Shown piece by piece: positions 27,001-30,000 of a stretch of DNA of 64,000 bases (position 1 is the first letter of the stretch; each line of letters starts with the position of its first letter). Made by a program: the position numbers. The stretch lies in IMG/VR virus record IMGVR_UViG_646311923_000012. The stretch is one strand, 5' to 3'. The stretch comes from a virus. Lineage: Duplodnaviria; Heunggongvirae; Uroviricota; Caudoviricetes.

Positions 27001-30000
27001 CACCTATTGCCACCCACTGGGACGGAGAGACTTTGTCCAGCAGCTGCAGTAACCAGTATCCCGTCCCCACCGCTGACGTGGTGTATGACACACCTGTTGT
27101 GATTTTTTCCATCTGATGTATGTCTCCGTCACCGCCGACAGAAAATGAAAGTAAAGAAAAACAAAAAAGCCGCCAGTGTCACCCACTGACGGCCAACTCC
27201 GGGAGCCGTGATTATGGCATTCAGGCTCTGCTAAAAATGCCAGATAACATTCCGGCCACCCCCTGATTCAGGTTATAAATGACACAATATCTTGACAACA
27301 CCCGTCACTGTCTGTCAGAAAATATACCGCCAGGCATAAGTATCATGTGAAATCCAACTATCCTTCTGAGCCAGCACCTCTCCACCGAAAGTCAGTGCTG
27401 GCTGTTTTTTTCCTTAATAAAGCATCTGTAACTGAAACAATCCGCATATTGATAATATATTGACAGGCATCATTGCTGTCTGTGAAAAATAAGTCTCTAC
27501 AAACATATAAGGCCTTTTAGCCAGCGTCTTCTTTCAGGTCAGTCGCTGGCTCTTTTTTTATTATGCTGCCGGTGCATTTATCTCCAGCACCAGACTTTCT
27601 ATCTCAACGCCATACGCTGCATTTTTTGTAACATCCGTCAGCGTCAGCGCATTCAGTCCCAGTGTCAGACTGTCTTTTATAACCTGGAATGCCGGGCCAG
27701 CCACTCCATTCAGTTTCGGAGTAACCGTGGCACTGCCGGCGGTGAACACCAGCTCCAGCGTCTGCCAGTCGTTACCGTAATCGCCGAACTCCCCCAGCTT
27801 CGTGTTTCCGGCTTTCCTGTGATGCATCAGATTCACTCTGCCGTCAGTGGTCTGAGTGAAGTACGACATCAGGAACGGATTACCGGTACCCGTCATCGCC
27901 ACACCATCAGGAACGGGAGCATCCGTATACAGATAAATCCCCAGCCCGAACTGATTGTTGGTCAGTGCGCCTGACAGGCGGAACTTACAGGTCAGTCTGC
28001 CGCCCTGTGTCAGCAGGGTAATTGCGTCATCCACCGGATGCGTCAGGGACCAGGTTTTATTGCTCTGCTTGGTGATCTTAAATACACCATCTGACAACTG
28101 AATTCCGCCATCCTTAATGCTCCAGCCCTGCGCAGCAGCCTCTCCGGCTGCCGGCAGCAGGGAGATTGTGCGAACGGACGTATCTGCAGACGGACCCGAT
28201 GGCGTGTTGCCGCCGGGCGAGGGTTTGATTTCCGGTGCCTTACCACTGATGAAGGCTGAGGTGCGCCCGGCTGCGTTCAGAATAGCGGTTGCCAGACGAT
28301 CCGGAATAATGCTCCTGCGCGCCCATGAACTGAAATGTGTCGGGCGGTTTGATGATACCTGGTTTCCATTCGTTCTCGATGCCGCACCGTAATATCCTGA
28401 TGCCGGAATATCCGGATCTTCTGCCGGCGCGTTAGTGGCGGTATTGACGCCGTTACCGTCTGTCATGAAGGGCACAAAATAAACGCCCTCACTCTCCCTG
28501 TTTTTATACCCGCCGTACACGGTGTCGTACTGGGTAGCGTATGTATTTTTCCAGTAATACGTCGTGTCACCACAAATCCACGGCACATCTGCAGCACTGC
28601 CACCATGGCACTGCGCGTTAAACACGGAGAGGTCAGCACGAAACTGTGTCAGCATGGCTGTAAACAGCGCAGGTTGCTGTGCGTGGGTGGCGGCGCTCAT
28701 GTCAAACTCTCCCTGCATCCAGCACACCGCCAGCAACACATTTTTCGGGTTCTTCTGTAATGCAGCTTTGGTGCGCGCAATCAGGTCCTGATATAACGGT
28801 TTACCCACACCCCAGCGCGCCGAATCCTGGCTGGCCCCCGTGTCCGCACTGAATGTCCCCTCCGCGCCCTGGGTAAATGCCGAACCACCACGACAGCATG
28901 GTACCAGCAGGATCCCCGCGTTATTCGGGATATACGGAAGCAGTTTTTTGGCAATATGTAAGCCCTGGCCGACACAGCCGTACTGCCCTTTGCTCAGGTC
29001 TGCCTTCGGATGATTCAGCGTACTCATATCCTGCACATCATGCAGGCAGTGGTCAGCCGGAATGATGTCGTTATACGTACAACTCTCTCCACCCGGAGTT
29101 ACCGTGCTGCGGCGCGCCAGCTGTTTAATGCGCGGATCCGGAGCATCGTAAGAATCCGGTAACGGAAGCCCTTCACCGTAGGCCATGCCGTTGGACTGTC
29201 CGGCAAGCACAACCACGTAGAACCAGTCCGGCTCAGATGAAGGGCCGACCTGTGGATCTCCTTCAATAGCCACCGCCTGCATCAGTGTGTACGGCGTAAT
29301 GGCAACCGGTCCGCCGTATGGCTGCCAGCCCTCTTTCAGTTTGTGTGTCAGCTTTTCCGCAAGGTCTGACGGCGACGCCGCCCTGACAACATCATAGTGT
29401 TTAAATGCCATGAATCCTCCCGGCCGGGATAATATTGTGAGTAAAATGAGGAGCGGGCTGAAGTCCGGAAGTTACAGGACAATGGCAGAAGAGAGACAAC
29501 AGCCCGCAATACGAAAAAGGCCGCGCTATTGCGCAGAGTGATTACTGTCGGATATTATTCGCCAGCTGAAATATTACTTCACGTTTTGTTGTTTATTCCT
29601 TGTCGCCCGCGTCTCCCTGCGCGGGCTTTTTTTGTCCATAAGAAAGCCCCTCCGGAGAGGGGCTGGAGAGTGGCGCTATGTGCCATTGCATGGTGCCGGG
29701 TGCCTCCCGGTGAATTCAGTACCAGCACCTGAATCCGCGATTATCCCATATACCTACTCGCTGATTGCCCCTCCGCACAGGGGGATTCACCATGCCAGTT
29801 TCTTTTAACAAACTCCCCGCAAACCAGACAACAGTCAACCGCCTGAATTGTGAGACATTTAAAAAAAAGGCCCGCAAAAGCGAGCCAGGGAAAATAAGTG
29901 TGGCGCGTTGTACTGGATTCGAACCAGTGACCGATTGCTTAGAAGGCAATTGCTCTGTCCGGCTGAGCTAACAACGCAGGATACAGATAATGGACCGCCT

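What the first reader, a model, noticed from the sequence alone, without database searches (positions are those of the whole stretch)
27289..27560. Tandem pair of repeated motif + long-loop hairpin + U-tract units on the strand antisense to the late operon
Two units about 170 bp apart share a TTGACA, a conserved TGTCTGT(C/G)A(G/A)AAAATA box, and then an 8-bp GC-rich stem (GCCAGC..GCTGGC) with an unusually long 17-nt loop followed by a T-run on the plus strand. Late genes on both sides are minus-strand, so these terminators cannot serve them. They look like two small plus-strand transcription units, possibly prophage sRNAs. No convincing -10 element was found, so the promoter assignment is weak.
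Basis: seen in the sequence. Interest (0 to 1): 0.55.

Follow-up and report, generated by a model that had tools for sequence, protein, structure and literature searches.

The report
Known prophage small RNAs PasA and neighbour

Summary
Between a sialate-esterase gene (27561-29411, minus) and the holin S gene (26906-27112, minus) of a lambdoid prophage lie two plus-strand units. Each has a perfect TTGACA, a shared CTGTCTGT box, an AGCCAGC..GCTGGCT hairpin with a 17-nt loop, and T7. They resemble each other far more than chance allows (0 of 1000 shuffles reach the score).

The interpretation as prophage sRNAs is supported, and these RNAs are already described. Unit 1 (RNA about 27327-27411) is a variant of PasA, an Hfq-dependent sRNA validated by Northern blot and RIL-seq in EPEC E2348/69. 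The published Northern probe matches 27378-27402 exactly. The EHEC Sakai Hfq-crosslink peak EcOnc51 is 77/77 identical to 27355-27431.

Unit 2 (about 27494-27560) is 78/78 identical to the EcOnc52 peak. It occupies the position of PasC and also ends the published 236-nt read-through form of PasA.

My additions are modest:
- The neighbours are tandem paralogues.
- PasC looks like a fusion of unit 1's 5' part with a unit-2-type terminator.
- Variation among prophages concentrates in the 5' body of unit 1.
- The terminator stem shows compensatory changes.
- A likely TG-extended -10 sits 18 nt after each -35.

No transcription start has been mapped at nucleotide resolution, so unit 2's independence is probable rather than proven.

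The parts
27292..27326 (+). Unit 1 promoter region. It has the -35 TTGACA (27292-27297) and a conserved CTGTCTGT box (27308-27315) whose TG (27313-27314) sits one base before CAGAAA (27316-27321). This reads as a candidate TG-extended -10 with an 18-nt spacer. An alternative -10 is GAAAAT at 27318-27323, with a 20-nt spacer.
   Evidence: Sequence. The published 5' end of PasA, taken from RNA-seq coverage, maps to about 27327, which is 6-7 nt after the candidate -10. Of the positions left free by the search pattern, only 27301 and 27324 vary among 47 distinct tandem loci. The consensus promoter scan does not call this site.
27327..27411 (+). Unit 1 RNA: a PasA-family sRNA of about 85 nt, probably the variant that the 2026 preprint calls PasA-2. 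The 5' body (27327-27368) is variable. The published seed GCCAGCACCU lies at 27370-27379. The terminator has stems at 27369-27377 and 27395-27403, a 17-nt loop, and U7 at 27405-27411.
   Evidence: The Northern probe complement matches 27378-27402 exactly. Alignment to E2348/69 PasA gives 73/83 identity, with the 3' 45 nt identical. EcOnc51 is 77/77 identical to 27355-27431. The seed comes from Fig. S5 of PMC8550237.
27412..27459 (+). Spacer between the units. It is transcribed only in the 236-nt read-through form of PasA.
   Evidence: PasA minor 3' end at 743264 in E2348/69. The long form aligns to window 27327-27562 with 221/236 identity.
27460..27494 (+). Unit 2 promoter region. It has the -35 TTGACA (27460-27465), the CTGTCTGT box (27476-27483), and TG-t-GAAAAA (27481-27489) at the same 18-nt spacing as unit 1.
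   Evidence: Sequence. It is almost invariant in 47 distinct tandem loci, with a mean minor-allele fraction of 0.002. It is kept intact next to three independent rearrangement breakpoints about 20 nt upstream. One of these is the IS629 junction in Sakai Sp4.
27494..27560 (+). Unit 2 RNA (about 65 nt). It is identical to the Hfq peak EcOnc52 and is the positional counterpart of PasC. The terminator has stems at 27519-27526 and 27544-27551, a 17-nt loop, and U7 at 27553-27559. The same terminator is the 3' end of the 236-nt PasA read-through form.
   Evidence: EcOnc52 is 78/78 identical to 27494-27571. PasC abuts the esterase stop codon in E2348/69 prophage PP5. RIL-seq chimeras with escD map to the last 28 nt of this unit in E2348/69 (743267-743294, minus strand), always in the sRNA position of the chimera.
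27583..27593 (-). CUGGUGCUGGA in the esterase mRNA, about 20 nt before its stop codon. With its flanks it is identical to a published RIL-seq target site of PasA.
   Evidence: Motif search and the PasA target table of PMC8550237 (site in E2348C_1246).
27168..27194 (-). Late-strand intrinsic terminator just upstream of holin S. This is context, not part of the sRNA genes.
   Evidence: Terminator scan: 11-bp stem followed by TTTTTGTTTT. The same feature is annotated in the phage 434 record.

Best explanation
This is a tandem pair of PasA-family small-RNA genes carried by a lambdoid (Stx-type) prophage. They lie in the gap between the sialate O-acetylesterase gene and holin S, and are transcribed against the late operon.

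Each unit has a perfect -35 TTGACA. In place of a canonical -10 there is probably a TG-extended, A-rich -10 placed 18 nt downstream (inferred). Host sigma-70 polymerase would fire these promoters in the lysogen without prophage induction; PasA expression in ordinary EPEC cultures has been shown.

Transcription of unit 1 stops mostly at its own hairpin and U7, giving an RNA of about 85 nt. A minority reads on to the unit 2 terminator, giving about 236 nt; both forms have been shown in EPEC. Unit 2 probably also starts on its own, giving about 65 nt (inferred).

The hairpin and U-tail bind Hfq. This has been shown for sequences identical to both units in EHEC, and for PasA in EPEC. The RNAs then act in trans by imperfect pairing. 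For PasA the published seed is GCCAGCACCU, made of the 5' arm of the terminator stem and the first loop bases, and it pairs with CUGNUGCUGG motifs. Those motifs occur in core, virulence and prophage mRNAs, including the 3' end of the neighbouring esterase mRNA.

The physiological consequence is not known.
For: Identity with published RNAs:
- The PasA Northern probe matches exactly at 27378-27402.
- Full alignment with the E2348/69 PP2 locus shows the same two-unit layout.
- PasA maps to 27327-27411, and its 236-nt form to 27327-27562.
- EcOnc51 and EcOnc52 are 100% identical to 27355-27431 and 27494-27571.

Published function of PasA:
- It is Hfq-dependent by Northern blot.
- It changes by log2 -2.8 in the differential-expression table for the activating condition, which I take to be the hfq mutant against wild type.
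- It has 41 RIL-seq partners, and a target motif complementary to the seed.

Synteny and strand:
- The esterase and holin genes are confirmed.
- The 2026 preprint places pasA between the sialic acid esterase and holin genes, on the strand opposite the tRNAs.

Structure:
- The terminator helix is paired in 96.8% of cells across 21 distinct family members.
- Three of its pairs carry compensatory changes (C:G to U:A, and G:C to or from A:U). No shuffle out of 500 reaches the observed covariation score, and every register shift collapses the pairing.

Pattern of variation in 47 distinct tandem loci:
- The unit 1 5' body has a mean minor-allele fraction of 0.133.
- The promoters, terminators and flanks have 0.002-0.04.
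- This matches the published statement that PasA and PasA-2 share the 3' end and differ in the first 40 nt.

Independence of unit 2:
- It has the same -35, box and spacing as unit 1.
- EcOnc52 was detected in Sakai Sp4, where IS629 has replaced everything upstream of window 27438.
- Three independent breakpoints leave its promoter intact.

The curated phage 434 record annotates both hairpins as terminators on the anti-late strand.
Against: - There is no canonical -10 in either unit. The scan does not call them, and CAGAAA and GAAAAA both lack the conserved final T.
- The published 5' ends come from read coverage, not from 5'-triphosphate mapping. The 2026 preprint suggests that the mature PasA 5' end may come from cleavage of a longer transcript.
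- EcOnc51 and EcOnc52 were not tested by Northern blot.
- In Sp4, unit 2 could be transcribed outward from IS629.
- The original EPEC authors treat the unit 2 region as a long isoform of PasA, not as a separate gene.
- The unit 1 hairpin alone is only modestly more stable than shuffled sequence (z = -1.7).
- No phenotype is known for any family member.
Confidence: 0.87

Rival explanations
1. Only unit 1 is a gene. Unit 2 is merely a second, back-up terminator and the 3' extension of PasA (the 236-nt isoform). On this view its TTGACA and box are an inactive relic of an old duplication.
For: The EPEC authors list the unit 2 region as the minor 3' end of PasA. The RIL-seq chimeras map only to its last 28 nt, which a read-through transcript would also contain. 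Unit 2 has no canonical -10.
Against: The unit 2 promoter segment is the most conserved part of the gap, with a minor-allele fraction of 0.002. The EcOnc52 peak starts at 27494, right after the predicted promoter, in a prophage where unit 1 is missing. PasC, a validated 79-nt sRNA, sits at the same position with a unit-2-type terminator.
Confidence: 0.28
2. The mature 5' ends arise by processing of a longer plus-strand transcript that starts further upstream, antisense to the lysis genes. The TTGACA motifs are not the promoters.
For: The 2026 preprint states that Northern data suggest cleavage from a longer transcript. The -10 elements are poor.
Against: The -35, the box and the distance to the RNA 5' end are the same in both units and are conserved across prophages. 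The longer Northern species is explained in Table S6 as a 3' extension rather than a 5' extension. Unit 2 survives with only about 20 nt of native upstream sequence in three different contexts.
Confidence: 0.15
3. The main role is in cis. The RNAs are fully complementary to about 234 nt of the late transcript between the esterase and holin genes. They would silence leaky late transcripts in lysogens or tune lysis timing after induction. This does not exclude action in trans.
For: The geometry fits: the RNAs are antisense to the late operon immediately upstream of holin S, and a late-strand terminator lies at 27168-27194. Other prophages with the same holin carry different anti-late-strand units at the same spot.
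Against: No data support this. Many prophages with the same holin have no such unit, for example those with a 147-nt gap. The published evidence is for trans targets with a defined seed. Q-modified polymerase and abundant late mRNA would probably swamp the sRNAs.
Confidence: 0.12
4. The hairpins are elements of the late transcript itself: bidirectional terminators, mRNA-stabilising structures or processing structures read on the minus strand.
For: The hairpins fold equally well on the minus strand (-16 kcal/mol for unit 2, z = -3.3).
Against: On the minus strand each hairpin is preceded by the A-run and followed by non-U sequence, so it cannot be an intrinsic terminator there. The plus-strand RNAs ending at these hairpins have been observed experimentally. 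The shared -35 and box have no role in this reading.
Confidence: 0.03

Closest known systems
PasA (pathogenicity-associated sRNA A), EPEC E2348/69 prophage PP2; Pearl Mizrahi et al. 2021 (PMC8550237); Zhu, Shabalina and Storz 2026 preprint (10.64898/2026.05.13.724894)
   Same: Unit 1 shares the locus (between the SASA esterase and the class II holin), the strand (against the late operon), the promoter region, the seed, the terminator and the U7 tail. The 3' 45 nt are identical and the Northern probe matches exactly. The read-through form also ends at the unit 2 terminator.
   Different: The first 40 nt or so of the RNA differ at about 10 positions from the E2348/69 allele. The window carries the other of two roughly equally common alleles (40 against 36-43 copies in my sample). 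This is probably the variant the preprint calls PasA-2, but I could not see its sequence figure.
EcOnc51 and EcOnc52, Hfq-CRAC sRNA candidates of EHEC O157:H7 Sakai prophages Sp12 and Sp4; Tree et al. 2014 (PMC4104026, Table S2)
   Same: They are 100% identical in sequence to window 27355-27431 (unit 1) and 27494-27571 (unit 2). Both are flagged as having Rho-independent terminators.
   Different: They are crosslink peaks, not mapped transcripts, and neither was tested by Northern blot. In Sp4 an IS629 insertion has removed unit 1, whereas the window has both units intact.
PasC, EPEC E2348/69 prophage PP5
   Same: It belongs to the same family. Its promoter and 5' body are of the unit 1 type. 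Its terminator is of the unit 2 type and abuts the esterase stop codon exactly as unit 2 does.
   Different: It is a single unit where the window has two. Its terminator loop is short (stem of about 10-11 bp and a 7-8-nt loop) rather than 17 nt. It looks like a deletion-fusion of a tandem pair. Locus L148 shows a tandem pair whose unit 2 already carries the PasC-type terminator.
AgvB and AsxR prophage anti-sRNAs (Rfam RF02702, RF02703)
   Same: They are Hfq-bound, prophage-encoded and transcribed against the late operon. They have a conserved 3' part and a variable 5' part, and occur in conserved positions of lambdoid prophages.
   Different: They lie on the other side of the esterase gene, between the moron and the esterase. 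They are 51-60 nt long and unrelated in sequence. The Rfam models do not match the window. They act as sponges of core sRNAs, which has not been shown for PasA.
STnc100 / PasD / StxS (short PR' transcript)
   Same: It is a prophage sRNA of the same late-region module and is present in this window at 29634-29824.
   Different: It is on the late strand and arises by termination of the PR' transcript. It has no sequence similarity to the units.

Membership tests
PasA/PasC prophage sRNA family | Sequence homology to PasA of E2348/69, including the probe region and the conserved 3' half | tested here: met
   The probe complement matches 27378-27402 exactly. Identity is 73/83 over the RNA, and the 3' 45 nt are identical. 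The nhmmer family profile gives E = 7e-22 for unit 1 and 4e-13 for unit 2.
PasA/PasC prophage sRNA family | Position between the sialic-acid (SASA) esterase gene and the holin-lysozyme genes, on the opposite strand | tested here: met
   Pfam assigns DUF1737+SASA+DUF6645 to the ORF at 27561-29411 (minus), P21 holin S to 26906-27112 (minus) and a lysozyme to 25685-26218 (minus). The published synteny is described.
PasA/PasC prophage sRNA family | [quoted passage not shown] | tested here: met
   Folds. The helix is paired in 96.8% of cells, and three of its pairs carry compensatory changes. Both units end in U7.
PasA/PasC prophage sRNA family | Conserved seed GCCAGCACCU overlapping the 5' arm of the terminator (PasA) | tested here: met
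   It is present at 27370-27379 in unit 1. Among the nine unit-1-type sequences, only two (L171 and L011) depart from it, by the C to U change that is compensated in the stem and a further C to U in the loop. Unit 2 and PasC carry GCCAGCGUCU and GCCAGCGUCC instead.
PasA/PasC prophage sRNA family | Hfq binding and Hfq-dependent stability | not testable with these tools
   From the literature only: Hfq-CRAC peaks on identical sequences, and PasA Northern blots and differential-expression data from an hfq mutant.
PasA/PasC prophage sRNA family | An own promoter giving a primary transcript | tested here: inconclusive
   Each unit has a perfect -35 and a TG-extended A-rich -10 candidate at a conserved spacing. 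However, there is no canonical -10 and no start-site data.
Any curated Rfam family | Covariance-model match in 26000-29000 | tested here: not met
   The only match is a chance SNORD45 hit at E = 4.9. PasA and PasC are not in Rfam release 15.
AgvB/AsxR anti-sRNAs | Match to RF02702 or RF02703, and a position between the moron and the esterase gene | tested here: not met
   No gathering-level hit anywhere in the window, although the same models do find AgvB in related loci L011, L021 and L069. The position is on the other side of the esterase gene.
Late-operon (minus-strand) intrinsic terminators | A hairpin followed by a U-run on the minus strand | tested here: not met
   The T-runs follow the hairpins only on the plus strand.

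The most novel reading that the evidence does not exclude
Besides acting in trans, the tandem pair might work in cis as a guard on the esterase-holin junction. The two RNAs are perfectly complementary to about 234 nt of the late transcript just upstream of holin S. Together with the late-strand terminator at 27168-27194, they would destroy or block leaky late transcripts in the lysogen, or set lysis timing after induction. The recurrent presence of unrelated anti-late-strand sRNA-like units at this same spot in other prophages (types D and E) would then reflect a general need for such a guard.
Probability: 0.1. Interest if true: 0.5.

Novelty: already known. Interest (0 to 1): 0.15.

Why it matters
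The finding itself matters little as a discovery. These RNAs were listed as Hfq-bound candidates in 2014, validated in 2021, and surveyed across genomes in 2026. The result does show that the first-stage reading can recover real sRNA genes from sequence alone.

Three small points go beyond the papers I could read:
- The PasA gene has a PasC-like paralogue immediately downstream, which is probably a gene in its own right. The 2026 preprint states that pasA copies are not products of tandem duplication.
- PasC looks like a fusion of the two units.
- The shared box is best read as a TG-extended -10.

The locus is widespread. The 448-bp gap occurs in 698 of 5426 complete E. coli genomes, at a median of 5 places in each genome that has it, and in Stx1a-converting phages, H-19B and 434. 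Because of this, the still unknown physiological role of these RNAs in EHEC and EPEC is worth finding out.

Tried and rejected
- Rfam, permissive search of 26000-29000: only a chance snoRNA hit. The whole-window gathering search found STnc100, sok, DicF and three tRNAs, but nothing in the gap.
- AgvB/AsxR identity was considered because of the similar logic. I rejected it because the position differs and the covariance models do not match.
- The consensus promoter scan does not call the TTGACA promoters.
- The single genome-contig scan was wasted on a pattern with a 12-nt spacer instead of the correct 10 nt. It returned only four chance hits in unrelated organisms, and the same wrong pattern gave 0 hits in viral contigs. 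I therefore could not test species range myself and rely on the 2026 preprint (Escherichia, Shigella, E. albertii).
- RNA duplex energy of PasA against the esterase 3' end was no better than shuffled sequence (-49.2 against a mean of -42.7, sd 5.1) and is uninformative for long sequences. The exact published target 11-mer is nevertheless present.
- EcOnc04 (about 222 nt, Sp11) was checked as a possible long isoform. It lies upstream of the esterase gene on the late strand, so it is unrelated.
- A plasmid copy of unit 2 is a slightly decayed remnant beside a fragment of the esterase gene in an IS-rich region. It was not informative.
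Full report
**Context.** The window is a lambdoid, Stx-phage-like prophage of E. coli with its late region on the minus strand. Rfam finds three tRNAs (29904-30150) and STnc100 (29634-29824), all on the minus strand, plus sok and DicF further along. Pfam identifies the 616-aa ORF at 27561-29411 (minus) as a DUF1737+SASA+DUF6645 sialate esterase. It identifies the 68-aa ORF at 26906-27112 (minus) as a P21-type holin S, and 25685-26218 (minus) as a lysozyme. The finding sits in the 448-bp gap between the esterase stop codon and the holin start codon.

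Reading the sequence confirms two plus-strand units.
- Unit 1 has TTGACA at 27292-27297 and CTGTCTGT at 27308-27315. Its 9-bp stem is AGCCAGCAC/GTGCTGGCT (27369-27377 and 27395-27403), around a 17-nt loop. G and T7 (27405-27411) follow.
- Unit 2 has TTGACA at 27460-27465 and CTGTCTGT at 27476-27483. Its 8-bp stem is AGCCAGCG/CGCTGGCT (27519-27526 and 27544-27551), around a 17-nt loop. C and T7 (27553-27559) follow, ending 2 nt before the esterase stop codon.
Otherwise the description is accurate.

The composite motif and the terminator motif each occur twice in the window and never in 100 shuffles. The local alignment score of the two units is 36, against a shuffle mean of 15.1, sd 2.3 and maximum 25 (0 of 1000). 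A family profile finds no further copy in the 64 kb.

**What it is.** A similarity search showed that this gap is common. It occurs in 698 of 5426 complete E. coli genomes, at a median of 5 places in each genome that has it. It also occurs in 29 phage records, mostly Stx1a-converting phages, plus H-19B, YYZ-2008 and 434. The curated phage 434 record annotates both hairpins as terminators on the strand opposite the late genes, and a third terminator on the late strand upstream of S.

A literature search then gave the identity. Pearl Mizrahi et al. 2021 (PMC8550237, Table S6) describe PasA in EPEC E2348/69 prophage PP2. It runs on the minus strand from 743499 to 743415 (major form, 85 nt) or to 743264 (minor form, 236 nt). 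It lies between E2348C_0688 (the esterase) and E2348C_0689 (the holin), in the '> < >' orientation. The table notes homologues EcOnc51 and EcOnc52 in EHEC.
- The reverse complement of their Northern probe matches window 27378-27402 exactly.
- Aligning the E2348/69 locus with the window shows the same two-unit layout.
- PasA maps to 27327-27411, and its 236-nt form to 27327-27562, so the minor form ends at the unit 2 terminator.
- The Hfq-CRAC peaks of Tree et al. 2014 (Table S2) are identical to the window. EcOnc51 from Sakai Sp12 is 77/77 with 27355-27431. EcOnc52 from Sakai Sp4 is 78/78 with 27494-27571.
- PasC, from E2348/69 prophage PP5, abuts the esterase stop codon exactly as unit 2 does.

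The 2026 preprint by Zhu, Shabalina and Storz surveys these genes. It places pasA next to the holin-lysozyme operon and across the sialic acid esterase gene from pasD2. It reports tRNA hits on the strand opposite PasA. It describes two about equally common variants, PasA and PasA-2, that share the 3' end and differ in the first 40 nt.

**What is known about function.** PasA is Hfq-stabilised on Northern blots. It changes by log2 -2.8 in the differential-expression table for the activating condition, which I take to be the hfq mutant against wild type. It has 41 RIL-seq partners and ranks 12th by number of interactions. Its predicted seed is GCCAGCACCU, made of the 5' arm of the terminator and the start of the loop. 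The seed is complementary to a CUGNUGCUGG motif in targets such as ftsB, frr, cvpA, bfp genes and the esterase mRNAs themselves. The exact target 11-mer with its flanks (GAUAGAAAGU-CUGGUGCUGGA-GAUAAAUGCA) is present in this window's esterase mRNA at 27593-27583 on the minus strand. In E2348/69, the last 28 nt of the unit 2 region form Hfq-dependent chimeras with escD, always in the sRNA position of the chimera. No phenotype has been published in the papers I could search.

**My own comparative tests.** I fetched 80 IMG/VR loci through the holin protein and 120 more through the corrected DNA pattern.

Among holin-anchored loci, the gap upstream of the holin comes in several forms:
- the tandem pair;
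- a single PasC-like unit;
- different anti-late-strand units with a better -10 (types D and E);
- no unit at all (a 147-nt gap);
- other genes.

Among pattern-anchored loci there were 75 tandem pairs, 39 single units of the unit 1 type, and 8 single units of the unit 2 type.

In 47 distinct tandem sequences, variation is concentrated in the 5' body of the unit 1 RNA. Its mean minor-allele fraction is 0.133, with two haplotypes near 50:50. The promoters, terminators and flanks show 0.002-0.04. The search pattern fixed TTGACA, CTGTCTGT and AGCCAGC, but the other positions were free to vary.

Across 21 distinct family members, the 9-bp terminator helix is paired in 96.8% of cells and three of its pairs carry compensatory changes. 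No shuffle out of 500 reaches the observed covariation score, and any register shift drops pairing to 21-49%.

**Relationship of the units.** Units 1 and 2 are paralogues, sharing the -35 context, the box, ATAAGT, the terminator arms and the U-run. PasC has the unit 1 promoter and 5' body joined to a unit-2-type terminator. Locus L148 is a tandem pair whose unit 2 already carries the PasC-type terminator. A deletion by crossover within TTTT(G/A)AGCCAGC would therefore yield PasC (inference). The 2026 preprint states that pasA copies are not tandem duplicates, with the closest pair 22 kb apart. It evidently did not count unit 2 as a family member.

**Promoter.** Neither unit has a canonical -10, and the scan does not call them. 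Both have TG one base before an A-rich hexamer (CAGAAA and GAAAAA) exactly 18 nt after a perfect -35. The coverage-based 5' ends (about 27327 and 27494) fall 5-7 nt after these hexamers. This is inference. Alternative hexamers ending in T (GAAAAT and AAAAAT) would need 20- and 19-nt spacers.

Unit 2's independence has three supports:
- The EcOnc52 peak was detected in Sp4, where IS629 replaces everything to the left of window 27438.
- Three independent breakpoints lie about 20 nt upstream of its -35 and leave it intact.
- Its promoter is extremely conserved.

Against it, the EPEC authors treat this region as a PasA isoform, and outward transcription from IS629 cannot be excluded.

**Verdict.** The feature is already known as PasA (EcOnc51) plus a PasC-like neighbour (EcOnc52). 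It is absent from Rfam release 15, which is why a database check alone would not have named it. Interest is low. The residual open points are the exact start sites, whether unit 2 is a gene in its own right, and what these widespread RNAs do.

Noticed in passing
window 27168-27194 (minus strand): A strong late-strand intrinsic terminator (11-bp stem, then TTTTTGTTTT) sits about 55 nt upstream of the holin S start codon. Only antiterminated polymerase should therefore reach the lysis genes. The same feature is annotated in the phage 434 record.
   Followed up: partly
window 27583-27593 (minus strand): The esterase mRNA carries, about 20 nt before its stop codon, the exact 11-mer and flanks reported as a RIL-seq target site of PasA in EPEC. 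The sRNA gene and one of its targets are therefore neighbours.
   Followed up: partly
window 29634-29824 (minus), 29904-30150 (minus), 34872-35046 (minus), 43806-43857 (plus): Rfam gathering-level hits elsewhere in the window: STnc100 (the PR' short transcript, related to PasD and StxS), three tRNAs, the sok antitoxin RNA, and DicF.
   Followed up: no
window 30179-30892 (minus strand): The 237-aa ORF just upstream of the tRNAs is an AraC-family HTH protein by Pfam, not the Q antiterminator I had first assumed. It may be one of the prophage-encoded AraC-like regulators of EHEC.
   Followed up: no
L029 and L022 (about 100-240 nt upstream of the holin); L069, L021, L010, L060 and L081 (about 640-700 nt upstream of the holin): Other prophages with the same holin carry different anti-late-strand sRNA-like units: TTGACAAT with a better -10, a body of 85-105 nt, and a GCCAGCG..CGCTGGC terminator followed by a T-run. 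Type D abuts the esterase stop codon as unit 2 does. None reaches an Rfam gathering score. They may be further members of a wider class that shares the GCCAGC terminator.
   Followed up: partly
L115, L123 and L127; Sakai Sp4 (L006 about 2630): Three independent rearrangement or IS junctions lie at the same place, about 20 nt upstream of the unit 2 -35 (..CCGCATATTGATAATATATTGACA). Each leaves unit 2 intact. This could be a recombination hot spot or retention of unit 2 by selection.
   Followed up: partly
L148; L011 and L171: L148 is a tandem pair whose unit 2 carries the PasC-type short-loop terminator. L011 and L171 carry a unit 1 with a compensatory C:G to U:A change in the terminator stem, plus loop changes inside the published seed region.
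   Followed up: partly
L212 3001-3151 (plasmid NZ_CP027444.1): A slightly decayed copy of unit 2, with its promoter intact and a G-U pair in the stem, lies beside an 87-bp fragment of the esterase gene. It sits in an IS-rich region of an approximately 91-kb E. coli plasmid.
   Followed up: partly
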